Origin: a virus
IMG/VR virus record: IMGVR_UViG_3300045988_152007
Span: 60,475-124,474 of that record
Strand: one strand, 5' to 3'
Length of the DNA: 64,000 bases
The notes beneath the pieces are model-generated. The model was not told the DNA's origin. It did not search any database and was given only the letters and a program-made list of their open reading frames with translations. Both the position numbers and the translations under genes were made by a program. Position 1 is the stretch's first letter. Every line of letters begins with the position of its first letter. Shown piece after piece: positions 27,878 to 59,078 of the stretch.

Positions 27878-27942
27878 GGGGCAGTGTTTCGTGAAAAACT
27901 TTTTCAATTTAATGTAATAAAGTCTTTCCTGGCAAAATAATT

Positions 27943-30290: not shown

Positions 30291-30308
30291 AGAAAGGAGA
30301 AATATTGA

Positions 30309-31523: not shown

Positions 31524-33274
31524 TGGCGTTACAAGATTTACTTGACCTATCTACAAGTAGGAAAAAAATAGGTCTTTCTGAAGAACGTATTAATGCCGTA
31601 ATGCCAGTCATTCGTAAATATACTGCCTTTTGGCGCGAATATCCAGATTTATTTGTTGATTTTTTAGTACGAGGAACACGTACAGAATAGAAAGAAGGAG
31701 AATTTAAATTTTTCTTCTATTAGCGTGTTTTTTTAAGATGTGTAATGCGCTATCAGTACGTTTATGCAGTTTTCCCTCGTGCCTATTCTAAATCATTCTT
31801 ATCAGTTATGGCATTAATGGTTAGATGTATTCTTTATCCTGGTGTTCATTTATTTGTTACTTCGGGTGGTAAGGAACAAGGCGCGAGTATTCTACATGAT
31901 AAAGTTAATGAAATTTGTGATTTAATACCAAGTTTTAAACGCGAAATTGATTGGGGCCGAGGTAAGAGCCAAGAGAGTAAAGATAAAGTACGTTATGTAT
32001 TTAAGAATGGTTCTGTCCTTGATAATTTAGCTGCGAGAGAAAGTACTCGTGGTCAGCGTCGTCATGGTGGTCTAATGGAAGAATGTGTAGGTATTGATGA
32101 TTAGATTTTACGCGAAGTCATTATACCAGTTATGGCTATTCCTCGTAGAGCTAAGGATGGTACAACTCATGAAGAAGAAGCGGTAAATAAATCATAGATT
32201 TATATTACTACTGCTGGCTATAAAAATACTTATCCTTATGATAGATTAATTGGTTTATTAGTTCGTATGATTACATAGCCTGATAGATGTATGGTATTAG
32301 GTGGAACTTGGCGAACTCCTGTTGCTGTTGGATTACAACAGAAAACATTTATTACTGACCAAAAAAATGAAGGAACTTATAATGAAGCTTCTTTCGAACG
32401 TGAATATGAATCAATTTGGTCTGGTACTGTTGAAGACGCTTTCTTTAATGCAGAAATATTTAATAGAAATAGAATACTGAATTAGCCTGAATACGAAGCT
32501 TCTGGCCGTTCAAGTAAATTATCTTATTATATATTAAGTGTTGACGTAGGCCGTAAAGGATGCGATACTGTTGTTTGTGTATTTAAAGTAACGCCGCAAC
32601 CGCATGGTGAGCCAATTAAAAGTTTAGTTAATATTTATACTATGAATGATACACACTTTGAAGATTAGGCTATTAAACTTAAAAAATTATATTATAAATA
32701 TAAAGCTCGCAGAATTGTAATAGATGCTAATGGACTTGGTGTTGGTTTAGTAGATTTTATGGTTAAGCCATAGATTAATCCTGAAACTTCTGAAGTAATT
32801 CCTGATTTTGGAGTTTATGGTGGAACTCAGGATGATGCAGTTCAAGAATATAAAAAATATAAAACTAATAGTACAGAATTAGATGTTTTATATTTAATGA
32901 AAGCTAATGCACCAATTAATACTGAAGCCCATAGTATTACTTAGTCAGTATTAAATTCTGGTAAGATTAAATTTTTAATTGATGAACGAACTGCTAAATA
33001 GAAATTATTAACTACTAAAGTGGGCTAGAATATGACCACAGAAGCGCGATCTGATTATTTAAGACCATTCAGTTTAACTACTTCATTGCGTGAAGAGATT
33101 ATGAATCTGCGTGAAGAAAATGAAGGTTTAAATATAATTTTAAAACAAGCTAATAAAAGTATTAAAAAAGATAAATTCTCTGCATTAGAGTATGGATTAT
33201 ATTATATAAAAAAAGTAGAAGAAGATAAAAAGAAGAAAAAATTCCGGGCTGCTGATTGGATGTTTATGAATTAA
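31523..33274 (+). CDS. terminase large subunit, TAG-recoded
   Basis: ORF-track fragments 31745, 32291 and 33032 are all in frame with ATG 31523. Motifs GGLMEECVGIDD, ITTAGYKNT, and RNaseH-like nuclease ILSVDVGRKGCDTVVCVF. Confidence 0.65.
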
Positions 33275-33362
33275 GCCGGGCAACTCTTATTATTCTTTTA
33301 AATTAATTTTTAAAAGAATAATAAGAGGAATTTATTTGTAGATAAGAAAGGAGACTTAATAT

Positions 33363-33719
33363 ATGGATGCCAGTCGTGCGGAGATTAAGATTAGAGAAAT
33401 CTTAGAGGAAGCCGGCCTGAATTTTAAGATGGAATATATATTTCCAGATTTAAAAACACATAATGGTCGTCCTTTACGTTTTGATTTTGTCATATTTGAT
33501 GATGATAATAATATTGATTTTTTAATTGAATATCAAGGGAAATAGCATTATGAAGCTAGTAATAAATTTGGCGGAAAACGTGGATTATATCAATAGCAAT
33601 ATAATGATAATCAAAAACGTAGATTCTGTGCTTTACATGATTTACATTTAATAGAAATTCCTTATACAGAAGAAAATTTAATTTCTTATGATTATATAAT
33701 GCGAAAAGCTGGATATTAA
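33363..33719 (+). CDS. small PD-(D/E)XK-type (DUF559/Vsr-like) nuclease, TAG-recoded
   Basis: RFDFVIFDDDNNIDFLIEYQGK(TAG)HY resembles the IEYDGxxH motif. Two in-frame TAG. Confidence 0.45.
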
Positions 33720-33736
33720 TTGAAAGAAGGTGAAGT

Positions 33737-35422
33737 ATGGAATTAGAAAAGGAAGAATTAACCAGAAATGAATAGATACATAAAAAAGGTTTTGACATAA
33801 CTGGAGGAGTACGTGAGTATTCTGCCGTTGGCCCAAATGAGTATAAGAAGATTAAAGTCGGGGTTAAGACATTAGATGATGCTGTCTTAAATCTTGGATC
33901 TTTTAGATGGGACACTTACGGTCGCCGTAGTGAAAAATATAGCCGTGAACGTATTTATACAAAACCTATGGTTATGGATGCTTTAATTCGTAATGATATT
34001 CAAGAACTGCGAAGAATATCACGTTTCTTTTTTAGAGTAAGTGGTATTTATCAAAGAGTATGTAATTATTTTGCAAATATGTATCGTTATGATTGGGCTA
34101 TTGCTATTTAGTCTAATAATACTGATGGTTCTGCTGTTAAAGATATTAATGAAACAAAAGCAGTAAAAGATTTCTGGCGAATTTTAAATTATTTAGATAA
34201 TTCTTATATTAAGAAAATTTGTGGCGATATGGCTCTTGAAGTTATCAAATGTGGAGCTTATTATGCCTATATTGTTCCCTCAAGTACTGGCTTAATTTTA
34301 TAGCAACTTCCTATTGAGTATTGCCGTTCAAGATATTCAGTAGGTAATTTACCTGCTATTGAATTTGATATGAGATACTTTGATACTTTTGTGGATACTA
34401 ATTACCGTAATAGAGTATTAAAATTATTCCCTGATGAATTTACAATAGGTTATCGTCTCTATAAAGCTGGTAAACTTTTACCTGATGTAGCTGGTGATAA
34501 TACTGGTAGTTGGTATTTGTTAGATCCACAAAGCACTATTAAGTTTGCTCTAAATGGTACTAATGATATTCCATTATTTGTAAATGCTATTCCTGCGATT
34601 TTAGATTTGGATGCTGCACAAGATTTGGACCGCCGCAAACAAATGCAGAAATTGTTAAAAATTTTAGTTTAGAAATTACCGCTTGATAAAAATGGTGATT
34701 TGATTTTTGATATTGATGAAGCTCGTGATATCCATAATAATGCTGTTGAAATGCTTCGTAGAGCAGTAGGTGTTGATGTATTAACTACTTTTGCTGATGT
34801 AGATGCTATTGATACTTCTGACAAAAATACTTCTGCCACTACAGATGAATTAGAGCGTGTTGAACGAACTGTATATAATGCATTTGGCGTTTCACGCAAT
34901 TTATTTAATACAGATGGTAATATCGCCTTAGAAAAGTCTATCTTAGATGATGAATCTACCATGCGTAATTTAATTTTGCAATTCAACATATTTTTTGATA
35001 GAATATTATCAGTCCTGAATGTTTAGAAAAAATATAATTATAAATTCTATATGTTAGAAACTACATAGTATAATTATAAAGATTTATCTAAAATGTATAA
35101 AGAGCAAACTTAGATTGGTTTCTCTAAAATGTTACCTTAGATTGCTCTTGGACAATCATAGAGTTTTATTCTTAATACAGCTCATTTTGAAAACGAAGTT
35201 TTACATTTAAGCGAAGTTATGATACCTCCTCTTATGAGTTCTACATTAAATGGTGAAGATATTTTGGGTAAAAAAGATTAGAATGGTTCTAACACTTCTC
35301 AAAATAAAACAAGTGGAAATGCCACTGTGAAAACAGAAACTAAAGAGGGTGGCCGACCAGAAAAAGCTAACGATGAAAAGAGCGAAAAAACAATTGCTAA
35401 TCGTCAAGCTGCTGGTAAATAA
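33737..35422 (+). CDS. portal protein, TAG-recoded
   Basis: 561 codons. Fragments 34370 and 34700 in frame. Position immediately after TerL. Confidence 0.6.
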
Positions 35423-35434
35423 GGAGGATTTATA

Positions 35435-37000
35435 GTGAGACATACAAGTGTTAAGTTAGATACTCCTGTTGAGTTTATTAATATCACTAAAATCAATCCT
35501 TTAATTTCTAAGTGTTAGATTAAGGTCTGCTATGTTAGTGATAAACCAAATCGCAATAGAAGTATTATAACAAAAGAAGTTGCTAAAGATTTAGCATAGA
35601 GTTTACCAGGTAGCCCTATTGTTGGTTATTACAATGAAGCTAATGGAGATTATGAAGAACATAACCGTGTAATTGATATTTCCAATGGTAAATTTGATGT
35701 AAAAGATACCACTGTTCCTTATGGTTTTGTAGATTTAGGGGCAAAAGTTTGGTTTTAGAAATTCTTAGATGATGGAAAAAACGAGCATGAATATTTAATG
35801 ACTGAAGGCTATATCTGGACAGATATCTATCCAGAAAGTAAGCGCATTATTGAAAAAGGCAATAATCAATCTATGGAATTAGATGATGAAAAAATTAATG
35901 CGTATTGGTCGAAAGATAAGAATGGAATGCCCGAATTTTTTATTATAAATGAAGCAATAATTAAGAAACTTTGTATTCTTGGAGAAGATTGTGAACCTTG
36001 CTTCGAAGGAGCTAATATTACTGCACCTACGATGCATTTCTCATTTAGTGATAAATTTAATGAGCAATTATTCTCTATGATGAAAGATTTAAAAGAATTA
36101 TTAGAAGGTAAAGGAGGAACAAAAGTGTTCACAAGATATAGTGTGGAGATTGGTGATTCCATTTGGACTTCTCTTTATTCTTACATTAAGGGCTTCGGAG
36201 CAGGTAATGCAATGATTGAAGAAGTTTGCGAAGACAATGGTAATTTATTTGCTATTGTCAAGGAAGATGATAAGTTCGTTCGTTTAGATTTTTCTATGGA
36301 GAATGATACTTTCACTCCTGGCGAAGTTTCTGAATTAACTGATTATTCTGTTTCTGATAATCCTCAATTCGATCCTGAAAAAGTCGCAGAATTTGCGAAG
36401 AAAAAAAAGGACGAAAAAGATAAAGACAATAAAGAGAATAATGATAATAATAAGGAAGATCCTTCTAAAGACCAGCCAAAAGATGGTGAAAAGAAGGACA
36501 CTCCCGAAAATAAACCAACTGATACTTCTGATGAAGAAGAAGAACCAACTGAGGATGACGAAGAGAAAAAAAAGAAAAAGAAAGCTAAGTACTCTTTGGA
36601 AGATGTAGTTGAATATGGTTTATTAAAAGATGAGTATGCTGCACTTGAAACTAAATATAATGAATTAGTTGAAAAGAAAACACAGCTCGAACAAGAACTT
36701 GCTTCTTTAACTCAGTTCAAAACTGAGGCTGAAAGAGAAAAGAAGCAAGAAATGATTAATAGTTTCTATATGTTATCTGATGATGATAAGAAAGATGTTG
36801 TTGCTAATATTGATACATATTCATTAGATGATATTGAAGCAAAGCTTTCTATTATCTGTGTTCGCAATAAGGTCAATTTCGATACCAATGAAAAGAAAGA
36901 AAATGACCCACTTACATATAATATTAATAATGATGTAAATGACGATAGCATTCCTGCTTGGATTAAGGCAGTATAGGATGTTGCGAAAACTATGGAATAA
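35435..37000 (+). CDS. scaffolding/assembly protein candidate, TAG-recoded
   Basis: GTG after AAGGAGG. Acidic/K-rich coiled-coil C-terminus (EEEEPTEDDEEKKKKKK...LEQELASL). Fragment 35798..36976 in frame. Confidence 0.45.
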
Positions 37001-37024
37001 TAAATTTTTAAGGAGGAAAACCTA

Positions 37025-37801
37025 ATGCTTTTAAAAGATATGCTTAAAGACCTAAGCGGCGTATCTGCTGTTAAGGGCGGCTACGTTGAATATGGCTATG
37101 GTCAGGTTGAGCCTAATCATTTAAGTGCTCAGCGCACTGGTCAGATTTACGCTCAATTACCTGCTAACAAAAATATCCAGCTTCTTGAAAATGGCCAGTT
37201 TGTTAAGTATGACTATGCTGCTGGTGACCTTGGTGAAGTTGATTTCACTGGCAAGGGCGAATGGATGTTAGTTTATAATGAAATTAAACTTTATCGTGAG
37301 GAACAAGCTGATTGCGAATTTGCTATGCGCAAAGACGATTATCAGGCTCGTTATTACAGCCCCTATGATGGCAAGCAGGAAATTGGTACACGTCAGGCTC
37401 GCTATTTAAACGGCAAGGATGCCGAAGGTAATACTTCTATGACTATTACAGATAGTCAGGGTGTACAACATACTTATGAGTATGATGATGTTACTGCTGG
37501 TCCTGATATTCGTGAACTCTTCTATGAAGAAGATCCTTTACATTTTGATGGTCCTTATGAGGCTCGTAGAATGCCTGCTGGCACTAATATGGTTCCTCGT
37601 GTTTTCAAGACCAATGTTGGTGATATTTTTACGACTAATACTATTGCCGAAGCTACTCTTGCAGTTGGCGATGTTTTAAGTCCTCGTGCTGCTGATGGTA
37701 TGCTTTCTAAATCTGGTGATGGCTCTATCCAATGGTAGGTTGTCAAGGTTTATGAAATGCCTGATCATCAGAAGGGCGTTAAGATTATGCGAATCGCGTA
37801 A
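37025..37801 (+). CDS. abundant head protein (decoration/minor capsid candidate); TAG-free for 237 codons, then TAG at 37736 and a 20-codon extension
   Basis: Clean ORF 37025..37738. In-frame continuation to TAA at 37799-37801 was verified. Confidence 0.5.
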
Positions 37802-37818
37802 GAAAGGAGAGAAGAAAA

Positions 37819-38955
37819 ATGTTAGATAGAAAAAATCTTGTTCAATTAATGAAGACTGTCGCTAAGGCTGATCCTTCTACTCCTACTGCTTACAGCTTTA
37901 ATGGCGAAAGCCTTTCTTATGATGCTCTTAATGAAACTCTCCGCAGAGAATTAAATGAACTTGCTGGAACTTATTCTTTATATCGTGATAATAAGAACCT
38001 TATTTTCTCAATGATTGAGGAAACTATTGATGAAGTTCTTCCTAAGAAAGTTGAAGAGCAATATAATCAGTTTGCTGAAGTTAAGACGTTTAAACAGGGT
38101 GACAAGCCTATTTTCCGTAGAAAGTTCAGCAACAATACTCGTGCAAAGCAATTTATCACTCGTGTCGGCCTAGCTGGTATCTATGAAGTATTCAAGCTTG
38201 GTAAGACTGAAGAAAGTTTTGAAGTCCGTACAAGCGCTATCGGCGGAGCTACTCAAATTGGATTTGAGGAATTCCTTGATGGCCGTGTCGATTTTGGTGT
38301 TGTCACTCAGATCGTCATGGAAGGTATGGATGAACTTATCTATAAAGAAATTGCCGGTGCTTTAAAGGCTTCTGTTAACCAGTTACCTCCTGCTAACCGT
38401 TTAGTTGCTAATGGTTTTGATGAACCCGGCTTTGATAAGTTACTTATGATTGCTTCTGCTTATGGTACTCCTACTATTTATTGCACTTATGAATTTGCTG
38501 TTCGTATGATTCCGAAGGATGCTTGGCGTTATACTGAAGCTATGAAAAATGAGCTTTGGAATACTGGCCGTCTTGCTTCCTATAAGGGCTATAAAGTAGT
38601 TATTCTTGAACAGGGCTTTGAAGATGCTACTAATGAAAAGAAAGTCATTGACCCAGGTTATGCTTGGATTATTCCTACTGGTGCTGATAGTAAGCCTGTA
38701 AAGGTTGCTATGGAAGGCAATACCATTGTTGATGAATATACCAATTATGATCGTAGCCGTGAAATTCAGGTTTATAAGAAAGTCGGCGTTATTGCTATGT
38801 TAGCTAATAACATCTGCTGCTATTGTGATACTGAACTTCTTGGTGATATGAAGACATGGCATCTTGATGGCGTAACTGGTAAGGTCCGTGACTATGCTGG
38901 TCAGATTACTGGTTCTCATGATACTATTGATGGCGGTAATGAAGATAAGCCGTAA
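37819..38955 (+). CDS. major capsid protein candidate; contains no TAG codon
   Basis: 378-aa uninterrupted ORF with higher GC than surrounding genes. Followed by a strong terminator. Confidence 0.5.
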   Translation: MLDRKNLVQLMKTVAKADPSTPTAYSFNGESLSYDALNETLRRELNELAGTYSLYRDNKNLIFSMIEETIDEVLPKKVEEQYNQFAEVKTFKQGDKPIFRRKFSNNTRAKQFITRVGLAGIYEVFKLGKTEESFEVRTSAIGGATQIGFEEFLDGRVDFGVVTQIVMEGMDELIYKEIAGALKASVNQLPPANRLVANGFDEPGFDKLLMIASAYGTPTIYCTYEFAVRMIPKDAWRYTEAMKNELWNTGRLASYKGYKVVILEQGFEDATNEKKVIDPGYAWIIPTGADSKPVKVAMEGNTIVDEYTNYDRSREIQVYKKVGVIAMLANNICCYCDTELLGDMKTWHLDGVTGKVRDYAGQITGSHDTIDGGNEDKP

Positions 38956-38991
38956 TTGATATTAACTAAAAATTAATATATAATATTTTTA

Positions 38992-39032
38992 GGGGAGAAT
39001 GGGGAAATCCCCTTCTCCCCTATTTTGTTTTA
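38992..39032 (+). terminator. terminator after the major capsid gene
   Basis: ggggagaatggggaaatccccttctcccc, followed by tattttgtttta. Confidence 0.55.
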
Positions 39033-39055
39033 TGAGTAAAAGGAGAATAAAAAAA

Positions 39056-39622
39056 ATGAGTAAAAAAATTTTAATAGTTACTAATAGAAGTGCTGGAATG
39101 GTTGTTTATACCATTCCTGAAGAAGGTATCCGCAGAGAATTTACACCTGGAGAAACTAAGAAAATTCCTTTTGAGGAATTAGAGAAACTTGCCTATCTTA
39201 GCGGAGGCCGCACTTTGATGGAAAACTTCTTAAAGATTGTGGATACTGAAACTACAGAAGAATTAGGTATTCATACAGAACCTGAATATTATTTAGACGA
39301 CGCTGGAGTTATTAAGCTTCTTACCGAAGGGACTCTTGATGAATTCCTTGACTGTCTTGATTTTGCTCCTATTGGAGTTATTGATATGATTAAGAGTTAT
39401 GCTGTATCTCTTCCTATGAGTGATTACAATAAACGTAAAGCTCTTAAGGATAAAACTGGATTTGACCTTGATCGAGCCTTAGCTAATAAGGAAGCTGAAG
39501 CTGCAGATGATGAACAAATTACTCCAAAAGCTCCTGAACGTAGAGTAAAGACCGAAACTAAGCTCACAACGCCTCCTGGTCGTAGAACTGCTCCTCGGTA
39601 TAACGTTGTAAAAGAAGGTTAA
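39056..39622 (+). CDS. structural protein; contains no TAG codon
   Basis: ATG after AAAAGGAGA. 188 aa. Confidence 0.45.
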   Translation: MSKKILIVTNRSAGMVVYTIPEEGIRREFTPGETKKIPFEELEKLAYLSGGRTLMENFLKIVDTETTEELGIHTEPEYYLDDAGVIKLLTEGTLDEFLDCLDFAPIGVIDMIKSYAVSLPMSDYNKRKALKDKTGFDLDRALANKEAEAADDEQITPKAPERRVKTETKLTTPPGRRTAPRYNVVKEG

Positions 39623-39644
39623 TTATAAATAAGGAGGGTTTTAT

Positions 39645-40256
39645 ATGACATATTTTTATAAGATTTATGAACGCTTTTTAGGTAAAGTAACAGATGATAT
39701 GTATTTAGAACTTACTCCTCATGATACATTTTTAGATTTACGTCAATTACTTGTTGATAGTATTCCTGGATTTGAATTTCCGCGTAAACGATTAGATTAT
39801 GTTTTAGTTGATGAAGATGCTCCTGATTTTATAAAAGGGGAAATTGATGGCGGAAATATTGATATACCATTAGGCGGAGATTTATCTGAAGAAGTAGCTG
39901 GCAGTAACATTGATATAGATAATGCTTTTTAGGAGATATTTTCTGAAGAAAATACCTCCTATTTTAATGCCGATTTGGATGATGAAGAAATTAATATCTT
40001 GGCTTTGATTATGGTTGAAGCTTGGGTAGAACGTCAATTGGCATCTATTGAAGTAACAAGAATGAAATATTCTGGCACAGATTTTAAATTTACTTCATAG
40101 GCAAATCATATGTAGAAATTGTTATCATTGAGAACAGAAGTAAGACGTTAGGCCTTTCATATGCAGAGATTATATAAGCGTCGTAAAACTGATGATAATG
40201 GATATATTAAATCTAACTGGTCTGTTCTAAGGGAGGTAAGTGCCCTTGATGACTAA
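39645..40256 (+). CDS. head-tail connector/adaptor candidate; TAG-free N-terminal 95 codons then recoded
   Basis: INILALIMVEAWVERQLASIEV looks gp6-like. TAA at 40254-40256 verified in frame. Confidence 0.4.
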
Positions 40257-40542
40257 ATATAATTTTAATATAGATAATGATTTAATTAATACTAATATTA
40301 ATAGATTAACTAATTAGATATGGAAATTAATTCCTATGCGCGAAAATGAAGAAGATTGGTTATCTTAGTTAAATACTGTAATTATTGAATTAACTGGTCT
40401 TGGGGAAATTTTTAACGATAGTTAGTATTTAATTCTTTTAAGTAAATTAGAAGGATTAAAAAATATTGAAATTGAATTTCCTATTTATAGAAAGACAGTG
40501 TTTGAAGCTATTACTTTATTAAGGGGGCTTCACATTGAATAA
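40249..40542 (+). CDS. small structural protein, TAG-recoded
   Basis: 97 codons ending in TAA at 40540-40542. Confidence 0.35.
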
Positions 40543-41530
40543 AAATGAATATTTAGATGCAATGTATAACCGTATTCCAAAAGCCAATATGCTTACAAGA
40601 TATTTATATGGCGATGGAGTAACAGGACAACAAGAACGAATGATAAGAGATAAACGTAAAACATTAAGTAGAGCTTTACTTTATTCTTATCAAGCTGCTT
40701 TGGTAAAAAAATTATATGATGATAAAGATACTATTGAACGTCGTGCATTAATTAATCCCGATAAAATAAAATAGGATTATGATGAAAAAATTATTTCAAT
40801 TGGTTTTGAAAGTAATTTTAAAACTGGGGATATTTTTTAGTGGTTAGGTACAAATACTTATTGGTTAATTTATTTACAGGATTTAACTGAATTAGCTTAT
40901 TTTCGTGGTAATATAAGACGTTGTTCTTATGAAATTGCCTGGGAAGATGAAAATAAAAATTATCATAAAACTTATGTTGCTTTGCGTGGTCCTGTTGAAA
41001 CTAAAATTAATTATATTCAAAAGCATGAAATTAGTATAGATACCCCTAATCATTCTTTAAATATATTATTACCTTATAATGATGATAATGTAAAATTATG
41101 TTAGCGTTATAATAAATTTTATTTATAGAATGACCCTAATAAAACATGTTGGCGTATTGAAGCTACTGATTTGTATTCTACCCCTGGAATAATTGAAATT
41201 AACGCTGTCGAGTATTATTCTAATGAAACCGCTGATGATATTGATAATGGTATTGTCAATGGTTTAATATAGTCGGTTCAAGATCCTAATTCAGGTAAAG
41301 AGAATGGCATTATAGGTGATACTTTTATTAAGCCTAAAGTAGTATATGAATATAAATATGATGGAATTAACTCTGGCGAATGGACTTGGGATAAAAAATT
41401 ACCATTAACAGTTAAAGTAAATGAAGAAACAAAGACTTTAAAATTACGATGGGAAACTACATATTGTGGTTAGTTTGATTTATTCTATGGGCCAGAATGT
41501 AAAACCATTGTAGTTGAATCTTTATTTTAA
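40535..41530 (+). CDS. structural (neck/tail) protein, TAG-recoded
   Basis: 331 codons. TAA at 41528-41530 verified. Confidence 0.4.
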
Positions 41531-41551
41531 AGATGAAGGAGAAATCGGAGA

Positions 41552-42142
41552 ATGAAAATTGATAATGTAAAAAATCCAGAGTCAGCATTTTTGGCCCAAG
41601 AGAAAGATATGAGAATTATAGTTGATCGTATGGCCGCGAATCAACGTTTGCGTAAATTACTTTATTATACTACTCCTGATGCGTTAAAAAAACCAGAAGT
41701 AAGTGATTAGAATTTCGCAAAAATGTTTGGCAAGAATATAAGGAATTTACCAAAATTATATATAGATAAAGATGTTTTAAATTATATCGTTATTAGTTTT
41801 GATAATTTTGCTCCTAATGGAGATAATCCTGAATTCAGAGATAATACTATTGAATTTGATATTATTTGTCATTATGATTAGTGGCAGTTAGCTGATTCAT
41901 TTTAGTTAAGACCTTATAGAATTGCTGCTGAACTTGATAGTATGTTAGATAAAAAACATTTAACTGGAATTGGGCAACTTAATTTCGTCGGAGCATAGCA
42001 AATTATATTAACTGATGAATTTGCTGGACTTTGTTTATTATATGATACAATACACGGAGGAGAAGATAAAAAATATATGCCAAATCCTGCTGATGAACAA
42101 ATGTTTATCGAGGATTATTTTAAAATGCCTAAAATGAACTAA
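41552..42142 (+). CDS. structural protein, TAG-recoded
   Basis: 196 codons. TAATG overlap with the next gene. Confidence 0.4.
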
Positions 42143-42876
42143 TGGATTATAAACTTAGTTTAATGTGCGGAACAGATTTACCTGTTCCAGAAATTCCATT
42201 GACTTTTCATTAGCCTAAGATAAAGGAAATAGCATTGATTGGCGAAAAAGAATTTTTTACTGGTGCTCAGTGTCTTTGTATTAATAAAAATAGTATAACA
42301 AATCAGGACAAGAATGATTTGGATACTACTACCAATTTTTAGATATTTATGATGGTAATGCTATAGAAAGATAATGTTAAACGGCGTAAAGCCGCGCAAT
42401 AGGTTCTATCATTACTATTCCCAAATTCAAAGTCTACATTTACTCCTAGATCTATTGTTATTTAGTATAATGAGAGTGACATTTAGATTAATCTTGATGA
42501 TGATAACTTTGAATTATTTTAGTCGGTAGCAAGACAAATTTTTTGTTTTGATACTAATAAAAATGGGCAAGATAACTATAATCCTGCTAATAAGAAAGCT
42601 CAAGAAATAGCTAATAAATTAATGAAAGGGCGTCAAAGAGTCGCTGAACTTAAAGGGGTTACCGATTCAAGCATTTTGAGCCAATACGTTTCTACATTGA
42701 CTATTGGATTAGATTCAATGTCATTAGAAGATTGTATGAATTTAACATTGTATTAGTTATACGATTTAATAGAAAGATTTTCTCTTTACACTAATTGGGA
42801 TATTGATGTAAAGAGTAGATTAGCAGGAGCTAAGTCAGATAAAAAACCTGACAATTGGATGAAAAACATTCATTAA
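42142..42876 (+). CDS. structural protein, TAG-recoded
   Basis: 244 codons. TAA at 42874-42876. Confidence 0.4.
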
Positions 42877-42955
42877 TTTTGTATAAATCGCTTTACTAAT
42901 TTTTGTAGCGAGTTATATAAATAAAATTTAAATTTTATTAAGGAGGAAATAACCT

Positions 42956-44041
42956 ATGAAATTTGGTGTTCGTGAGATATGCGATGTCGTATTAAAAGCT
43001 CGTGCTCCTATGAAGGTTGGTAATAAAGTTTTCTATGCGAACGAACCAGTTCTTTATTTTGATACATTAAAAACTTCTAGCCTTGAAGGTGCTTCTACGA
43101 CCGTATATGCACAAGGCGGACGCGGCAATGCTCGTTTAGTAGCTTGGGATGGCGACCGTACTTTAACATTCACTATGGAAGATGCTCTTATTTCTGCTGA
43201 AGGTTTCATGATTCTTGCTGGAGCAGGTCTTATTGATGCTTCGAAGCAGAATACGATTAAACAGCATGTAACTGAAAAAACAACTGCTGTCGCTCTCTCT
43301 GAAGATAAAAAGAGTGTACAAATTTTTGTTAAGAACTTACCATATGAACAAGTTGATACTACTACTGGTGCGCATAAGGGTGAATTCTATATTTATGCTA
43401 TGCGAGTTGACAATGATGAGCCAGTAACTGAACCTTATCTTCCTACAGTTATTCGTTAGACAGAGGCACCAACAAAACCTCAAAAGTTCTATTTTGATGA
43501 AACTGAAATGAAGTATAAGACCTGCACTGATGAAGAAGCTGATACTAAAGCCAAAGCTGGTACTTAGATTTATTATGGTCTTCAAATTAAGGAAATCACT
43601 TCTACTTACAAAATCGTCGATGAAACTGAAGCCGGGGCAGAACATAAGTTAGAACTCTTTGAAGGCTCTGTTGTTCTTCTTGATTATTATATTGAGAAAG
43701 CCAGCAAGACTCGTCAAATTGAAATTACTGCTGAATCTTTTGGTGGCAACTTCTATCTTGAAGCTTCTACTCTATTCCGTACTCAAGACGGCGTTGATCT
43801 TCCAGCAGAATTTATAATCCCTAACTGCAAGATTCAGTCTAACTTTACTTTCAGCATGGCCGCGACTGGCGATCCTGCGACTTTCACTTTCACGCTTGAT
43901 GCTTTCCCAGGAACTACTCGTTTCAATCCTACTAAGAAAGTACTTGCTGCAATTCAGATCATTGAAGATATTGACAATGATAGTGTCTATCGTACTCAAA
44001 CTATCCATGATCCGATGCACGACAGCTATTTTGATATTTAA
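42956..44041 (+). CDS. major tail (tube) protein candidate; TAG-free for 167 codons, then recoded
   Basis: AGGAGG RBS. The clean 42956..43459 ORF continues in frame through the TAG to TAA at 44039-44041. Confidence 0.5.
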
Positions 44042-44043
44042 TT

Positions 44044-44208
44044 ATGATTATTAGCTCTAATGCTCCACGGCCTATTAAAGCGTTTGAAGTAGAAAAAGTC
44101 GTAATTAAAAAGTCGAAAAAAGAAAATAAAATTTCTCAACAAAAAGAAAATAAAGCTCCTCTCACAGAGGATGAACTTATTGAAAAGATTATTAAAGGAG
44201 AGGGTTAA
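44044..44208 (+). CDS. small protein (54 aa)
   Basis: Followed directly by a terminator. Confidence 0.35.
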   Translation: MIISSNAPRPIKAFEVEKVVIKKSKKENKISQQKENKAPLTEDELIEKIIKGEG

Positions 44209-44230
44209 TCCCTCTCCTTTTTTTATTTTG
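44197..44230 (+). terminator. terminator after the major tail gene block
   Basis: ggagagggttaatccctctcc, followed by tttttttatttt. Confidence 0.55.
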
Positions 44231-44251
44231 TGAAAAAGGAGAGAAAAAGAT

Positions 44252-45571
44252 ATGGCAAAATTAACAAATGCCTAGAAAAATTAGTTAGTTTATTATAAAC
44301 AAAAGGGAGTTTCATATAAAAATGAAGTAAATACTCCTACTTATTTAAATAGTCTTTTGGAAACATATAGAGCAGCAGCTCGACCAAATGATATGATTAC
44401 TAATAAAGAAGTTCAGGACGCTAAATTATTAGAAGAAGTTTTAAATGGAATTAAATAGATACAAAATAATTATAGTAAAAAAATGTCTTTCACTACCGAG
44501 TCTTTAGTAAAAATAGTTTAGGATTAGGCTTTAGCCGAATTATTTAATTAGTTATATATGGTAAATCCTAATTTATTTACTAATGGAGGATTGGTGAAAA
44601 AAGGAGCTAATAGTTCTGAACGTGGTGCTTTATTAGAAAATTTTATGAATGAATTTATTACTACTATTGACTATGCTTTTTAGAATATAGAAATGCCTTA
44701 TGGTCCTTTACCTCAAACACATCGTTCTGGTCAGTTAGTTGATAGTATTAATATGAAAAATTTAATTATTAATGCTGGTGATGGAGCCATAGATAGTGCA
44801 ACAAAAACTGCCATAAATTATTTCTCTAGGCTAGCTTATAAAATTGGGCAGGAAAAAAAAGATTCAGGTAATACTACAACAGAACGTCAAAAAAATAATT
44901 TAAAAGCTGTTACTATTTATACTCAAATTAAAGAAAATGGTAAAGTCGGTGCTATTTAGAGTAAATAGATAAAAGCTGATAATACAGGATTAAATTATAA
45001 TATTTCAATAACAGCTACCGCAACAATGTTAGAACGAGTAGTTAATGCTTTATCATTAGCTACTTTTAGTGATAAAAACTATTTATCAAATAGTTTTATA
45101 GGTTTAGGCCATACTAATCCTTATCGTGTTTTTTTAACCGTAGCCGATGGAGATACAAGTTATAAGTTATATAGATATGCTCGTATGTTAAATTGTATGG
45201 CAAGGCATTCTAAAATGGCCGAGCATAATGATGTACCTAAAATGTTTTTTAGAATTAGAGCTATTTATGAATTAACAGGGGCTAAGCAAAGAGTTGGAGA
45301 TACTAAGTATGCTTATTAGAATGTAATGGCAAATTTTATTAATGATATTGGTCGTACTAAATTTTTAGTTATTAATAATCCTAAAAAAGAAGGATTCTTA
45401 AAAGTTTTATCAACAGCTAAATTGGCAAAAGATATAGAAATGAATTTATATTTTAATAAAAAATAGGGATCTAAAAGTATTTTAGAAAATGATAAAAGAA
45501 GAATGTCCATGGAACAAGCTTTATATAGTCCTATTAGTATGAATTTTGAAAAAATTTTTGAGGATTAGTAA
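44252..45571 (+). CDS. tail-associated protein, TAG-recoded
   Basis: 439 codons with about 15 TAG. Ends in TAG-TAA. Confidence 0.4.
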
Positions 45572-45578
45572 AATTTTT

Positions 45579-45607
45579 TTGACTTTGAAAAATTTTTTTG
45601 TTATAAT
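45579..45607 (+). promoter_or_regulatory. internal late promoter TTGACT-17-TATAAT upstream of the chaperone and TMP genes
   Basis: ttgactttgaaaaatttttttgttataat. Confidence 0.55.
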
Positions 45608-45684
45608 ATATTTGTAAGATAATGAAAATTAAAAAATTTACCTAGATAATTTTTTTAAAATATAATAAAGAAGGAGGCGAGGTA

Positions 45685-46212
45685 ATGGCAAAATTGGCAT
45701 TTTCCAAGCTTACACTTCAAAAAAACTCTTAGGTAAAAGAATGGAGTTTTAATGAGCAATCTATTGAAGTAAAGCAGTATTTGTCTATTAAGGAAAGAAT
45801 GGATATTGCTTAGTTGGTCATTCAACAAGTCATTGATTTTAATAATGAATTTTTGAATGAATTTGCTTTCCATATGTATATGGATTTAGCAATAGTATTT
45901 AATTATACAAATTTATCTTTTACTGATAAGCAAAAAGAAGATTTGTATAAACTTTATGATTTACTTGTTGGATCAGGGTTTATGAAAGAATTGAAGAAGC
46001 AAGTAGATTGTAATCAAACTGATGATTTAGAAGTCTATACTTATGAAACACTTAATGGATATTATAAATATCATAATAGTATTTATGGAATTATGGATGC
46101 TATGAATCAGAATTATTCTAATTTAAACTTAGATGTTAATGAACTGCAAGATAAGATTTCTAATCCTGAGAGTCTATCTTTAGTAAAAGATATTTTAACC
46201 AAGATGGGTTAA
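45685..46212 (+). CDS. tail assembly chaperone candidate, TAG-recoded
   Basis: 175 aa immediately upstream of the tape measure gene. Behind the late promoter at 45579. Confidence 0.4.
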
Positions 46213-46252
46213 AATATTATAATTAATTTCTAATTTAAATAGGAATATTAAA

Positions 46253-46287
46253 AGGCGAGAGGCTTTGTTCCTCTCGCCTTTTCTTTA
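46253..46287 (+). terminator. terminator/attenuator between chaperone and tape measure genes
   Basis: aggcgagaggctttgttcctctcgcct, followed by tttcttt. Confidence 0.45.
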
Positions 46288-46326
46288 TATATATAGAAAT
46301 TTATAATGAGAGAAAGGAGCTATTTT

Positions 46327-49300
46327 ATGGCTAATAACAGTGCTAATTATAATGTTAATATGCGATTTACAGCTGATACAGGTCAAGCTAAATAGCAATT
46401 ACGAGATTTACAAAGTTCATTAGATACTTTAATGAATTAGATAGCAACAAAAAATATTAAATTTTTTGATGTTAATGCCACTAAAAAAGAAATAGATGAA
46501 GCCTCGGCAGCAGTTTAGGAGTTAAAAATTGCTTTAGATTAGGCGACTAATGTTAATACTGGGCGTTTAGATTTATCAAAATTTTCAAAGAGTTTAAGCT
46601 AGAGTGGTTATACTCTTTAGGATTTTGCTACACACTTAGAGAATCTAGGCCCAACAGGTGATAAAGCATTTGTTGCATTAGCATAGTCTGTTATTAATGC
46701 TGAAGTTCCTTTAAAAAGAACTAACGCTATATTAGATAATTTTAAAAAGACATTAGCTAATACAGCCAAATGGCAAATTTCATCTAACTTAATGCATGGA
46801 GTATAGGGTTCTTTATAGAAAGCTTACTATTATGCAGAAGATTTAAATAGATCATTAAATGATATTCGTATAGTTACTGGATAGAGTAATGATTAGATGG
46901 CTGAGTTTGCTGAAAAAGCTAATAAGGCTGCTCAAGCATTAAGTACAACTACTACTAATTATACTAATGCTTCTTTAATTTATTATCAATAGGGTTTAAG
47001 TGATAAAGAAGTTGCTGATCGTACTGAAGTTACTATTAAAATGGCTAACGCCGCAGGCGAAAGTGCTTCTAAAGTATCTGATTAGTTAACTGCTGTTTGG
47101 AATAACTTCTATGATGGTAGCAAATCTCTTGAATATTATGCAGATGTAATGACTAAACTTGGTGCATATACTGCTTCTAGTACTGATGAAATTTCAGAAG
47201 GTATATAGAAATTCGCTTCTGTTGCTAATACTATTGGTCTTAGTTATGAATATGCTACATCTGCATTAGCTACATTAACTGCCAAAACACGTGAAAGTGC
47301 GAATACAGTAGGTAATAGCCTTAAAACCTTATTTGCACGTATTTAGGGTCTGACTCTTGGAGAAACTCTTGAAGATGGTACTGATTTAAATAAATATTCT
47401 AAAGCCCTTGAAAAAGTTGGTATTAGTATTAAAGATCAATAGGGTGAGTTAAAAGATATGAATACTATCCTTGATGAAATGATGAATAAGTGGGATAGTT
47501 TAAGTCGTGCTGAACAAGTGGCTCTTGCATAGACTGTTGGTGGTGTTCGTCAATACACTCAATTAGTTAATCTTATGGAGAATAAAGATTATTTTAAAGA
47601 GCTAGTTGGAGTGGCTAAAAATTCTGAAGGTACTTTACAAGAACAAGCTGATATTTATGCTGAAAGTTGGGAAGCTTCTAAAAAGCGAGTACAAGCTTCT
47701 CTTGAAGAAATTTATAAGCAATTAGTTAGTGATAAATTTTTTATCGGATTAAATGATACATTAAGTGATACATTAAATATTACAAGCAAATTGATTGATT
47801 CATTAGGCGGATTGCCTGGTGTATTAAGTGTTATTTCTACTTTAATGCTAAAAAGCTTCGGTCCTGATATTGTAAATAATATGCAGCGTATGGCTTCCAA
47901 TTTGTTTATTGACAGCGGAGCTGCTGAAAATTAGGCTGCGGTTATGAAGCAGTAGATGATAAATGTTTTAAAGACCTTTACAACTTATGAAGAAAAACCT
48001 GATTTAACAAAATAGGGTTCAGTTGAATTAGAAACAACTACAATGGTTAAAGCTGCAGAGGCTTCTTATGATTTATAGCTAGCAAATAATTAGTTAAATG
48101 AAACAGATAAATTAAGATTATAGACATTATTAAAAATTTCTTAGGCTTATGGACAAATAGCTATAGAATCTAAAAAAAGCATAGAAGCTCAACAAACTTA
48201 GAGTAATAACAATTTACGTAATGCTCGCAATACAATTTTTGAAGATAATAATAAAAAATTTGGTGGAGATAAGGGCGTAATTTATTTTGACAATAACTTA
48301 AAAAAAGGCCAAAAGATTGTTGATAATTTTTATAATGATAAAACAATGCAAGATTTAGAGTCTTTAAAAATTAATTCAAATGGTTCTTTTAAAGATTTTA
48401 TTTCTCAATTTGGTCAATTAGATTTAAATAATCAAAGATATAGTAAATTAAATTAGTTAATTCAATAGGGTAACAATTCTAATCTAAGTAATGGTGCTAA
48501 AGGTACTCTTAGAAAAGATATATTAGCTGAAGTTAATAATTTAAGAGACGTTAATCTTGAAATTGATAATTATGTTAATTAGAAAATTAAAGCAGAAAAA
48601 TTAACAAAAGCTTAGTCTAATGCTTTAAGATAGTGTCTTACAGATTACGTAAATGAGAAAGAGGCTCTTTTGTAGAACAAAGGAGCGGTTGAAAAATATG
48701 AGAGTGCTATTGAAGCTTTTAACGCAGAATTAAAAGCTAGTCAAGGATCTATATATAGTTTTTCTCAAGGATTAGTTTCTAGTTTTTAGGGTATTTCTCA
48801 ATTAGCTATTGGAATCAATAGTTTAAAAGGAATGTTTAATACTTTAAATAATAGCGAATTAGATTTTGGAGAAAAATTAACTTAGAGCATTACTTCGGCA
48901 AGTTTTGCTATTCCTTCTTTAATCAATGGAGTAAATTAGTTAGCTAGTGGATTAAAAGAAATTGGAACTAATTGGAAGGGACTAGGTACTAATATTTTAT
49001 CAATAATGACTGGTTTAGGAGGGTCTTTATAGGGTTCTGACTTATAGGCAGCTTTAAAGACAAAGATAGAGAATAGCTCTGGATTTAGAGCTAAAATTAT
49101 GCAAACTGGTCTTGATGCTTATACCGCCAAGCTTAAAGAATTGGGAGTAGCTGCTGGTTCTGCGGGAACTGCTGAATAGCAATTGGCAGCTAGTGGTGCA
49201 GCGACTCATGCAATGTTTACTAAATCTTTACTTGTTTTGGGTAAATATGCTTTAATAATTGGAGCAGTAGTTGCTGCCATTGCTGTATTGGTTAAAGTAT

Positions 49301-55300: not shown

Positions 55301-55629
55301 ATAATGGTAAAATTATTAAAGTCCATCCTAAAGAATTAATTCTTAACCAAAAAGATACTTCTAATATACTTCGTGCAGTTGATATTGTTCGTAATATGAA
55401 TGATTGGGTTGATAAACAAGTGCAATCAATGATTAATTTTGGATAGATAAAGTTGGGTAATTTAATTGATAAAACTACTCCACCTGTTTATGAAACTTAG
55501 CCAATTAAGCAAGAAGTTACTATCCAAGCAGACTTCCCAGGAGTTACTGATCATTATGAAATTGAAGAAGCATTGTCTAATCTTAGTAATAATGCGGCTC
55601 AATATATAAGTGCAAATAAATCTAAATGA
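46327..55629 (+). CDS. tail tape measure protein (about 3100 aa), TAG-recoded
   Basis: The N-terminal region matches the TP901-type TMP domain (MTKLGAYTASSTDEISEGI.KFASVANTIGLSYEYATSALATLTAKTRESANTVGNSLKTLFARI). Six ORF-track fragments are in the same frame. I verified 46327-50100 codon by codon: dozens of TAG and no TAA/TGA. TGA at 55627-55629. Confidence 0.6.
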
Positions 55630-55656
55630 GGAGGATTAATTTCCTCCTCATTTTTG
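55628..55656 (+). terminator. terminator after the tape measure gene
   Basis: gaggaggattaatttcctcctc, followed by attttt. Confidence 0.45.
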
Positions 55657-55675
55657 AGGAGAGAAAGGAGTTAAT

Positions 55676-58972: not shown

Positions 58973-59003
58973 TGGATTTTTATCCATCATTCTTTTTTTT
59001 TAT
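58967..59003 (+). terminator. terminator after the 55676..58972 tail gene
   Basis: gaatgatggatttttatccatcattc, followed by ttttttttt. Confidence 0.55.
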
Positions 59004-59078
59004 TTGGACCAAAATAGTATGTTTACAATATATAATTTTTAAAAATAAATAGAAATAAGAGTTAAAGGAGGTCAATAA

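What the first reader, a model, noticed from the sequence alone, without database searches (positions are those of the whole stretch)
37025..44041. TAG-free islands for the most abundant virion proteins, with TAG placed exactly at their C-termini
Inside the TAG-dense late operon, the putative decoration protein (237 codons), major capsid protein (378 codons), the next structural protein (188 codons) and the N-terminal 167 codons of the major tail protein contain no TAG at all. From the 1-in-18 density elsewhere, about 10-20 TAG would be expected in each. These genes also have visibly higher GC. Two of them, 37025..37738 and 42956..43459, end in a TAG whose read-through adds 20 and 194 codons respectively. 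If suppression is incomplete, each gene would yield a short and a long isoform at a fixed ratio. A C-terminally extended minor form of the capsid or tail tube protein is a classic way to make decoration or fibre-bearing subunits.
Basis: partly seen in the sequence, partly recalled or inferred. Interest (0 to 1): 0.65.

Follow-up and report, generated by a model that had tools for sequence, protein, structure and literature searches.

The report
Abundant virion genes avoid recoded TAG

Summary
The TAG-free islands are real. The two-isoform mechanism proposed for them is not supported.

**Observation.** The + strand late operon (about 29.3-64 kb) uses TAG as a sense codon, about 1 per 39-45 codons, not 1 in 18. 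Four genes together carry 3 TAG where about 30 are expected (P=3e-10):
- the decoration-like gene, 37025-37801
- the major capsid gene, 37819-38955
- gene 39056-39622
- the probable major tail gene, 42956-44041

**Relatives.** The pattern recurs in all 13 deep TAG-recoded lineages among 80 related loci, and in the published phage phAss-1.

**Codon bias.** These genes show typical high-expression codon bias (CGT, GCT and GGT favoured; ATA, AGG, CGA and GGG nearly absent; CAG preferred over CAA). Standard-code relatives show the same bias, so it does not depend on recoding.

**The two "C-terminal" TAGs.**
- TAG 37736 sits at a glutamine that is conserved in all 80 homologues. The 20 residues after it are also conserved.
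- TAG 43457 lies in a hypervariable insert between two strongly conserved halves of one protein.
- Neither TAG is conserved among relatives.
- The tape measure gene has 108 in-frame TAGs, so read-through per TAG must be about 98% or higher.

**Extra island.** TAGs also stop at a conserved internal ribosome-binding site plus GTG at 36125 inside the scaffold-like ORF, which suggests a nested abundant product.

**Verdict.** This is an ordinary mechanism. A 2026 preprint already noted it for the capsid gene of another code-15 phage.

The parts
29355..64000 (+). Late operon in which TAG is a sense (Gln) codon. The gene order is sigma-factor-like gene, unknown gene, TerL, portal, scaffold-like gene, head genes, tail genes, tape measure gene, then distal tail genes.
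   Evidence: The ORFs are open only with TAG recoded. PHROG hits: TerL; sigma factor and portal; tape measure. There are 242 TAG in 10,911 codons. Stops are TAA or TGA only.
35435..37000 (+). Scaffold-like ORF (phrog_3313), starting at GTG 35435 after AAGGAGG. Its TAGs are at 35516, 35597 and 35756, with one more at 36974.
   Evidence: In 58 recoded relatives, 187 of 197 TAGs lie in the first 234 codons, counted from the upstream stop codon (ORF 35423-37000).
36125..37000 (+). Proposed nested in-frame product, probably an abundant scaffold. It has an internal GGAGG ribosome-binding site plus GTG at 36125. It forms a further TAG-poor island (1 TAG in 291 codons).
   Evidence: A GGAGG plus GTG/ATG is kept at the aligned position in 75 of 80 loci, recoded and standard alike; in 3 more the aligned codon is GTA. 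The TAG density drops exactly here. No product has been shown.
37025..37801 (+). Decoration-like head protein (phrog_35301), 258 aa, function not established. It has a single TAG at 37736-37738, which is conserved Gln 238.
   Evidence: Relatives have 1.3 TAG per 1000 codons.
37819..38955 (+). Major capsid protein (phrog_4088, PF27364), 378 aa, with no TAG.
   Evidence: 81% identical to a protein that nr names major capsid protein. Relatives have 0.33 TAG per 1000 codons. The structure model was too poor to confirm the fold.
38992..39031 (+). Terminator-like hairpin (GGGGAGAA..TTCTCCCC, -25.5 kcal/mol) followed by a T-run, directly after the capsid gene.
39056..39622 (+). Unknown structural-module protein (phrog_30998), 188 aa, with no TAG.
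   Evidence: Relatives have 0.58 TAG per 1000 codons. Its codon bias is only moderate.
39645..42876 (+). Five intervening low-copy structural genes with ordinary TAG density: 39645-40256, 40249-40542, 40562-41530, 41552-42142 and 42142-42876. They carry 4, 3, 6, 4 and 8 TAGs.
42956..44041 (+). Probable major tail (tube) protein (phrog_2729 virion structural protein, PF27173), 361 aa. Its TAGs at 43457 and 43565 (codons 168 and 204) lie in the hypervariable central insert.
   Evidence: Relatives have 0.32 TAG per 1000 codons.
44194..44233 (+). Terminator-like hairpin followed by a T-run, after the tail protein gene.
   Evidence: -20.3 kcal/mol.
46306..55629 (+). Tape measure protein, 3107 aa, with 108 in-frame TAGs. 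It serves as the contrast case and sets a lower bound on read-through efficiency.

Best explanation
The window comes from a TAG-to-glutamine (code 15) siphovirus-like gut phage. In its late genes, TAG is one of three glutamine codons.

TAG has to be read by a suppressor tRNA in competition with the host release factor. That makes it the slowest and most error-prone glutamine codon. Its cost, in lost or truncated product and stalled ribosomes, grows with the number of times a gene is translated.

Selection therefore removes TAG from the genes translated most, just as it removes other poor codons such as ATA, AGG, CGA and GGG. These genes are the capsid protein, the decoration-like protein, gene 39056-39622, the major tail protein and a nested scaffold product. 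In genes needed in a few copies (terminase, portal, tape measure, fibres), TAG drifts to 30-55% of glutamine codons, largely at the expense of CAG.

The TAGs at 37736 and 43457 are rare synonymous glutamine codons that this sub-lineage happens to carry. They are not protein ends.

What is shown: TAG aligns with Gln, the depletion is real, codon bias co-varies with it, and the downstream sequence is conserved. [quoted passage not shown]
For: 1. **TAG means Gln.** Rare TAGs in these genes fall on conserved Q columns. Codon 238 of the decoration-like gene is CAG, CAA or TAG in all 80 loci.
2. **Depletion in the window.** There are 3 TAG against 30.4 expected, P=3.4e-10. Among Gln-type codons the ratio is 3/41 against 238/489, P=4.6e-8.
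3. **Replication across relatives.** In 58 recoded relatives the four genes have 0.3-1.3 TAG per 1000 codons against 10-37 in most neighbours; the scaffold-like ORF (6.7) and 45622-46212 (5.1) are intermediate. All 13 deep recoded lineages show a TAG share of 0-0.07 in these genes against 0.27-0.46 in their neighbours. The published phage phAss-1 shows the same pattern.
4. **High-expression codon bias.** These genes favour CGT, GCT, GGT and CTT and nearly lack ATA, AGG, CGA and GGG. The same shifts occur in 22 standard-code relatives (r=0.68, rho=0.74). In a PCA of codon usage in the standard-code relatives, with Gln excluded, the capsid, tail and decoration-like genes sit at the extreme of PC1. 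PC1 correlates with the TAG share in the recoded relatives (rho=-0.60, P=0.025).
5. **Protein conservation does not explain it.** TerL is 72% conserved and TAG-rich. The decoration-like, 39056 and tail genes are 55-59% conserved and TAG-free.
6. **A contrast inside a single ORF.** In the scaffold-like ORF, TAGs stop at a conserved internal ribosome-binding site plus start at 36125.
7. **Terminator-like hairpins** follow the capsid gene and the tail gene.
8. **Copy number.** The 3107-aa tape measure protein implies a very long tail and hence hundreds of tail-tube subunits. This is an inference from general siphovirus architecture.
9. **Precedent.** Reassigned codons are reduced in highly expressed ciliate genes (PMC10553269). 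A capsid gene without TAG has been noted in an amber-reassigned Crassvirales phage (bioRxiv 10.64898/2026.08.21.746148).
Against: - There are no expression or proteome data for this phage. "Abundant" is inferred from gene identity, synteny and codon bias.
- The capsid structure model failed (pLDDT 45). The tail model gave only weak tube-protein matches (E>=6e-3). The decoration-like protein and gene 39056-39622 have no established function.
- Gene 39056-39622 is TAG-free but only moderately codon-biased in standard-code relatives (PC1 0.32).
- No tRNA gene lies in the window or in the 28 related loci scanned, which span about 21 kb or less each. The suppressor tRNA is known only from relatives (PMC10607447).
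- Many of the 80 loci are close relatives, so pooled counts overstate independence. The 13-lineage comparison is the fairer test.
- Some genes not expected to be abundant are also TAG-poor in this window. The sigma-factor-like gene has 1 TAG in 311 codons.
Confidence: 0.8

Rival explanations
1. The TAGs at 37736 and 43457 are leaky terminators. Each gene would then give a major short protein and a minor C-terminally extended protein at a fixed ratio, as in Qbeta A1-type read-through.
For: Both TAGs exist, and each is the first TAG in an otherwise TAG-free stretch. Some gene callers truncate homologues at this codon: P0160 and P0161 end at Trp237.
Against: - The sequence after each TAG is conserved and present in every homologue, standard-code ones included.
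- Stopping at codon 168 would remove the conserved C-terminal half of the tail protein.
- TAG at these positions occurs in only 7 of 58 and 2 of 56 recoded relatives.
- No gene in the window terminates at TAG.
- The 108 TAGs in the tape measure gene demand about 98% or more read-through per codon.
Confidence: 0.04
2. Independence from the code switch. The abundant structural genes are kept TAG-free so they can be translated before the suppressor tRNA is available, or if the host disables it. Under this view the driver is timing or robustness, not translation efficiency.
For: TAG-free genes can be translated under the host code. Published models propose recoding as a timing lock on late genes (bioRxiv 10.1101/2021.08.26.457843). 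An RNA ligase gene at 5574-6944 could hint at tRNA repair.
Against: - These genes lie inside the same operon as TerL, portal and the N-terminal part of the scaffold-like ORF. Those carry TAGs and are needed at the same time or earlier in head assembly.
- This model does not predict the multi-amino-acid codon bias, nor its presence in standard-code relatives.
Confidence: 0.1
3. Horizontal origin. The higher-GC, TAG-free genes were recently imported from standard-code phages and have not yet accumulated TAGs.
For: They have higher GC and a different codon usage from their neighbours. Standard-code clades are nested within the recoded clade.
Against: - The same GC and CAG excess is seen in the standard-code relatives themselves.
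- The pattern is present in all 13 deep recoded lineages.
- Capsid-protein distances track TerL and portal distances (r 0.79-0.81) about as well as those two track each other (0.83).
- Occasional TAGs do arise in these genes, at conserved Gln positions.
Confidence: 0.03

Closest known systems
TAG-to-Gln (genetic code 15) gut phages: crAss-like phages, Lak phages, and the phAss-1 / 'Caudoviricetes code 15 clade' (PMC10607447; bioRxiv 10.1101/2021.08.26.457843; PMC9523058; PMC7886860)
   Same: In-frame TAG is concentrated in late and structural genes and aligns with Gln. Early genes are compatible with the standard code. Standard-code relatives occur at short phylogenetic distance. phAss-1 shares the head and tail gene order: its capsid protein is 49% identical, and it shows the same TAG-free set of genes.
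   Different: Those papers treat late genes as one recoded block. The phAss-1 paper does not comment on avoidance linked to protein abundance. In crAss-like phages, in-frame stops in the capsid gene were even used as a marker of recoding (PMC7886860).
Capsid gene without reassigned codons in an amber-reassigned Crassvirales phage (bioRxiv 10.64898/2026.08.21.746148)
   Same: It makes the same observation for the major capsid gene and offers the same suggested reason, pressure for efficient translation.
   Different: That work covers a single genome and a single gene in an unrelated phage order. Here the pattern covers four or five genes and 13 lineages. It is also tied to codon bias in standard-code relatives and to an expression boundary inside one ORF.
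Reduced use of reassigned stop codons in highly expressed ciliate genes (PMC10553269)
   Same: The reassigned codons are under-used in highly expressed genes, and those genes also have higher GC.
   Different: That is a eukaryotic nuclear code with altered eRF1. Here a phage imposes a suppressor on a host that presumably keeps its own release factor, which should make the cost larger. That last point is an inference.
Programmed stop-codon read-through giving extended capsid proteins, such as the Qbeta A1 protein (from general knowledge)
   Different: In such systems the stop ends a complete protein and the stop position is conserved. Here the codon lies inside conserved sequence and is not conserved. 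The defining features were tested and not met.
Nested in-frame scaffold genes such as lambda C/Nu3 (from general knowledge)
   Same: An internal ribosome-binding site plus start codon lies in frame within a longer head-assembly ORF. The C-terminal part is predicted to be the abundant product.
   Different: No protease domain was recognised in the N-terminal part (only phrog_3313, function unknown). No protein evidence exists.

Membership tests
Genetic code 15 (TAG to Gln) phage | Conserved late genes are full length only if TAG is read as sense | tested here: met
   ORF content is 19.2 kb under the standard code and 53.3 kb with TAG recoded. TerL, portal and tape measure are recovered as single ORFs.
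Genetic code 15 (TAG to Gln) phage | In-frame TAG aligns with glutamine in homologues | tested here: met
   Codon 238 of the decoration-like gene is CAG, CAA or TAG in all 80 loci. Rare TAGs in the capsid gene fall on Q columns.
Genetic code 15 (TAG to Gln) phage | TAG is not used as a terminator | tested here: met
   Late gene stops are 15 TAA and 3 TGA. Early ORFs use TAA or TGA, apart from 2 doubtful ORFs.
Genetic code 15 (TAG to Gln) phage | A suppressor tRNA with anticodon CUA is encoded by the phage | tested here: inconclusive
   No tRNA was found in the 64 kb window or in the 28 related loci scanned. About 90 kb of the genome lies outside the window. The relative phAss-1 carries tRNA-Sup-CTA (PMC10607447).
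Programmed read-through isoforms (Qbeta A1 type) | The stop codon sits at the end of a complete protein, and homologues end there | tested here: not met
   All 80 homologues of the decoration-like protein run to residue 257/258. Tail protein homologues are 320-396 aa, with a conserved C-terminal half after the TAG.
Programmed read-through isoforms (Qbeta A1 type) | The stop codon is conserved at that position among relatives | tested here: not met
   TAG is present in 7 of 58 (decoration-like gene) and 2 of 56 (tail gene) recoded relatives. Elsewhere the position holds CAG or CAA, or variable residues or gaps.
Programmed read-through isoforms (Qbeta A1 type) | Both the short and the long product are present in virions | not testable with these tools
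   This needs virion mass spectrometry.
[quoted passage not shown] | Coordinated preference across many amino acids in the same gene set | tested here: met
   RSCU shifts are seen for Arg, Ala, Gly, Leu, Ile, Pro, Ser, Lys, Phe and Asn.
[quoted passage not shown] | The bias is independent of the recoding and is present in standard-code relatives | tested here: met
   r=0.68 and rho=0.74 between the two sets. PC1 in the standard-code relatives singles out the capsid, tail and decoration-like genes.
[quoted passage not shown] | The biased genes are the most highly expressed or translated | not testable with these tools
   This is inferred only from predicted virion copy number. No expression data exist.
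HK97-fold major capsid protein (37819-38955) | HK97-like fold | tested here: inconclusive
   The AlphaFold model has pLDDT 45 and is unusable. There was no PDB sequence match. The assignment rests on a source name for an 81% identical protein and on synteny.
Siphovirus major tail (tube) protein (42956-44041) | Tail-tube fold, and a position upstream of the chaperone-like genes and the tape measure gene | tested here: inconclusive
   The position is met. The best PDB fold hits are tail tube proteins, but with E>=6e-3 and TM<=0.26. BFVD hits are 'Structural protein [Siphoviridae]' at 1e-14.
Nested scaffold gene (lambda C/Nu3 type) | A conserved in-frame internal ribosome-binding site and start codon | tested here: met
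   A GGAGG plus GTG/ATG lies at the aligned site in 75 of 80 loci; in 3 more the aligned codon is GTA.
Nested scaffold gene (lambda C/Nu3 type) | A separate C-terminal product is made | not testable with these tools
   This needs N-terminal sequencing or mass spectrometry.

The most novel reading that the evidence does not exclude
TAG number could act as a built-in stoichiometry dial. If each sense TAG loses a small fixed fraction of ribosomes, a gene's yield falls as efficiency to the power of its TAG count. The phage would then set relative virion protein amounts partly through TAG count: none in proteins needed in hundreds of copies, 108 in the tape measure protein needed in a few. On this reading the TAG pattern is adaptive tuning, not mutation-selection balance, and the single TAGs in the decoration-like and tail genes slightly trim their output.
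Probability: 0.1. Interest if true: 0.6.

Novelty: new member of a known kind. Interest (0 to 1): 0.3.

Why it matters
- **Cost of the reassigned codon.** The pattern shows that the reassigned codon carries a measurable cost in a code-15 phage. Selection removes it 20-100-fold from the most heavily translated genes, while it makes up about half of the glutamine codons elsewhere.
- **Limit on the "late-gene lock" model.** The most abundant late proteins are exempt from TAG, so recoding cannot be what times their synthesis.
- **Practical consequences.** Capsid genes are poor indicators of recoding in this clade. Code-11 gene callers will truncate the decoration-like and tail proteins at lone TAGs; truncated database entries were seen. 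A sharp fall in TAG density can also flag an internal start for an abundant nested product, as at 36125.
- **Correction of the lead.** The two-isoform idea should not be pursued on the basis of this sequence.

Tried and rejected
- **PDB sequence and profile searches** for the tail, decoration-like and capsid proteins found nothing. Pfam-A found nothing for five proteins.
- **The capsid structure model was unusable** (pLDDT 45), because all retrievable homologues were at least 79% identical. The HK97 fold could not be confirmed, and no fold search was run on that model.
- A TAG-to-Q translation typed by hand is not an exact window sequence. It was redone with the 99% identical P0001.
- **The tail model gave only weak PDB fold matches**.
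- **The suppressor tRNA search found none**, either in the window or in 28 related loci. I considered scanning the viral collection with a tRNA-Sup pattern taken from phAss-1. I dropped this because the pattern would hit every code-15 phage and could not be tied to this genome.
- **Horizontal transfer rejected**.
- **Protein conservation as the cause rejected**.
- **The "1 in 18" background density rejected**.
- **The GenBank annotation of phAss-1 was uninformative**: all products are hypothetical and the genes are fragmented by code 11.

Full report
**What the window is**

The + strand from about 29.3 kb to the end of the window is one long late operon. It is open only if TAG is a sense codon. 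ORFs of 150 aa or more sum to 19.2 kb under the standard code and 53.3 kb with TAG recoded.

PHROG matches identify these genes:
- a sigma-factor-like gene (29355-30290), portal (33737-35422) and a scaffold-like ORF (35435-37000)
- TerL (31523-33274)
- a 3107-aa tape measure protein (46306-55629)

The same order of PHROG families, ending in a tape measure gene, occurs in the cultured standard-code Enterococcus phage VRE9_1. The published code-15 phage phAss-1 is a more distant relative (PMC10607447).

All 18 complete late genes stop at TAA or TGA. The minus-strand genes at 1-28.9 kb have almost no in-frame TAG. No tRNA gene lies in the window.

**Checking the observation**

In-frame TAG density in the late operon is 242 per 10,911 codons, or 1 in 45. 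Excluding the candidate islands it is 238 per 9,289, or 1 in 39. The densest late genes reach 1 in 29-30.

Counts for the four island genes:

| Gene | Codons | TAG observed | TAG expected |
|---|---|---|---|
| 37025-37801 | 258 | 1 | 6.6 |
| 37819-38955 | 378 | 0 | 9.7 |
| 39056-39622 | 188 | 0 | 4.8 |
| 42956-44041 | 361 | 2 | 9.2 |

Pooled, that is 3 observed against 30.4 expected (P=3.4e-10). Restricted to glutamine-type codons, the ratio is 3 of 41 against 238 of 489 (Fisher P=4.6e-8).

GC is 0.37-0.42 in these genes against 0.26-0.32 elsewhere, and GC3 is also higher.

So the islands and the GC difference are real, but the stated background and expected numbers are about twofold too high. 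The region is also not one island: the genes at 39645-42876 have ordinary TAG density.

**Are the two TAGs protein ends?**

No.

*The decoration-like protein (37025-37801).* More than 8000 database relatives exist, and the full-length ones are about 250-258 aa. The segment after the TAG, W-Q-VVKVYxMPDHQKGVKxMRIA, is among the best conserved parts. In the 80 related loci the aligned codon is always glutamine (CAG 37, CAA 36, TAG 7). Every homologue continues to residue 257/258, including the 22 standard-code phages. Two database entries that end at Trp237 are evidently code-11 truncations.

*The 42956-44041 protein.* Homologues are 320-396 aa. They have an almost invariant N-terminal 165 residues, an almost invariant C-terminal 120 residues, and a gap-rich hypervariable insert between them. 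Both TAGs (codons 168 and 204) lie in that insert. TAG at codon 168 is present in only 2 of 56 recoded relatives. Stopping there would delete half of the conserved fold.

*Read-through efficiency.* The tape measure ORF contains 108 in-frame TAGs. At 90% read-through per TAG only 1e-5 of ribosomes would finish. About 98% or more is needed for a 10% yield. A single TAG can therefore generate at most a few percent of truncated product.

**How general is the pattern?**

A scan of IMG/VR with the capsid protein returned 80 loci of about 21 kb. Of these, 58 are TAG-recoded and 22 use the standard code.

In the recoded loci:

| Gene | TAG per 1000 codons |
|---|---|
| decoration-like | 1.3 |
| capsid | 0.33 |
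| 39056-39622 | 0.58 |
| tail | 0.32 |
| most neighbours | 10-37 |

Among the neighbours, TerL has 15.6 and portal 18.3. The scaffold-like ORF (6.7) and 45622-46212 (5.1) fall in between.

A TerL+portal+capsid tree resolves 13 deep recoded lineages and two nested standard-code clades. In every one of the 13 lineages, the TAG share of glutamine codons is 0-0.07 in the four genes and 0.27-0.46 in the neighbours.

phAss-1, whose capsid protein is only 49% identical, shows the same pattern. TAG counts are 0 in its scaffold-like, decoration-like, capsid and 39056-like genes and 1 in 544 codons of its tail gene. The neighbours carry 6-25 TAGs.

**Why: codon optimisation of heavily translated genes**

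The four genes differ from their neighbours across many amino acids in the classic way. CGT, GCT, GGT, CTT, CCT and TCT are favoured, along with the C-ending Phe, Ile and Asn codons. ATA, AGG, CGA, CGG and GGG are close to absent, and CAG is preferred over CAA.

The same shifts are present in the standard-code relatives (r=0.68, rho=0.74). I ran a principal-component analysis of codon usage on the standard-code relatives only, excluding glutamine. It places the capsid, tail and decoration-like genes at one extreme. That axis predicts the TAG share in the recoded relatives (rho=-0.60, P=0.025).

The bias and the higher GC therefore do not depend on recoding, and TAG behaves like one more disfavoured codon. 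In the TAG-rich genes, CAG has nearly vanished. For example, the tape measure gene has TAG 108, CAA 108 and CAG 7. In standard-code relatives the same genes keep 17-35% CAG. This suggests that TAG largely replaced CAG where selection is weak.

Alternative causes do not fit:
- **Protein conservation.** TerL is more conserved (72%) than the decoration-like, 39056 and tail genes (55-59%), yet it is TAG-rich.
- **Horizontal transfer.** Capsid distances track TerL and portal distances (r 0.79-0.81) as well as those two track each other (0.83).

**An internal control**

The scaffold-like ORF starts at GTG 35435. In relatives, 187 of 197 TAGs lie in the first 234 codons counted from the upstream stop codon (ORF 35423-37000).

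Independently, a scan for ribosome-binding sites found a perfect AAAGGAGG followed by GTG at 36125, which is codon 235. A GGAGG followed by GTG or ATG is conserved at the aligned position in 75 of 80 loci, recoded and standard alike, although the flanking codons vary; in three more loci the aligned codon is GTA.

This fits a nested, abundantly made C-terminal scaffold product. It also shows TAG density dropping at an expression boundary inside a single reading frame.

**Supporting anatomy**

Strong terminator-like hairpins follow the capsid gene (38992-39020, -25.5 kcal/mol) and the tail gene (44194-44220).

The capsid assignment rests on a source name for an 81% identical protein and on synteny, because the structure model was unusable. 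The tail assignment rests on three things:
- the PHROG label "virion structural protein"
- its position upstream of the tape measure gene
- weak fold matches headed by siphophage tail tube proteins

**Comparison with what is known**

TAG-to-Gln recoding of late genes in gut phages is established (bioRxiv 10.1101/2021.08.26.457843; PMC9523058; PMC7886860; PMC10607447). Those papers do not discuss avoidance in abundant proteins.

Reduced use of reassigned codons in highly expressed genes, together with higher GC, has been reported for a ciliate (PMC10553269). A 2026 preprint on an amber-reassigned Crassvirales phage notes that its capsid gene has no reassigned codon and attributes this to translational pressure.

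The present case is therefore a well-replicated example of a known principle in a known kind of phage. It adds several further genes, 13 lineages and a contrast within one ORF.

**Verdict**

- The isoform mechanism is not supported.
- The best explanation is selection against a costly reassigned codon in the most heavily translated virion genes (confidence about 0.8).
- Interest is modest.

Noticed in passing
window 35435-37000, internal site 36110-36127: A conserved internal ribosome-binding site (GGAGG) plus an in-frame GTG at 36125 lies inside the scaffold-like ORF. It is kept in 75 of 80 related loci. TAG codons occur almost only upstream of it. This suggests a nested, abundant C-terminal scaffold product.
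   Followed up: yes
window 46306-55629: The tape measure protein is 3107 aa with 108 in-frame TAGs. By the usual length rule it implies an unusually long tail (roughly 450 nm). It also requires near-complete TAG read-through.
   Followed up: partly
window 9464-9991 (+), 10281-10940 (+), 11899-12534 (-): The highest TAG densities in the window (about 1 in 20) are in two small + strand ORFs inside the early region. One has a GIY-YIG-like endonuclease motif. A neighbouring HNH endonuclease gene on the minus strand also carries 4 TAGs. Homing-endonuclease-type genes seem to be TAG-rich.
   Followed up: partly
window 5574-6944 (-): An RNA ligase gene (phrog_968, E 6e-54) has no TAG. It could be relevant to tRNA repair in a phage that depends on a suppressor tRNA, but this is speculative.
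   Followed up: no
window 29355-30290: The first gene of the late operon is sigma-factor-like (phrog_5767). It has only 1 TAG in 311 codons in this window, although its homologues in relatives have an intermediate TAG share (0.26).
   Followed up: no
window 38992-39031, 44194-44233, 46250-46292: Three strong terminator-like hairpins with T-runs lie after the capsid gene, the tail protein gene and gene 45622-46212. A near-consensus promoter-like site (TTGATA-17-TATAAT) sits at 38956-38984, between the capsid gene and the next gene.
   Followed up: partly
window late operon, all sense TAGs: The base after a sense TAG is enriched for A (0.41) and depleted for G (0.23), compared with the base after CAA (A 0.30, G 0.40; chi-square P=8e-5). 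This may be a context effect on read-through or a dinucleotide bias.
   Followed up: partly
window 12000-28000: The minus-strand block of small early genes has GC 0.38-0.43, well above the 0.26-0.32 of most late genes, with strongly negative AT skew on the + strand. The cause was not examined.
   Followed up: no
L007-L023, L069-L071, L073, L074 compared with the other loci: Two standard-code clades are nested among 13 TAG-recoded lineages of the same phage group. The code has therefore been gained or lost at least twice at short evolutionary distance.
   Followed up: partly
window 44044-44208, 40249-40542, 33363-33719: Three small ORFs fall outside the main gene list. A 54-codon ORF follows the tail gene, and its stop lies inside the terminator hairpin. 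A 97-codon ORF with 3 TAGs follows a GGGAGG site. A 118-codon ORF with 2 TAGs lies between TerL and portal.
   Followed up: no
P0160, P0161 (database homologues of 37025-37801): Some public protein entries for this family end exactly at Trp237. They were truncated at the sense TAG by standard-code gene calling, which is an annotation artefact that propagates in databases.
   Followed up: partly
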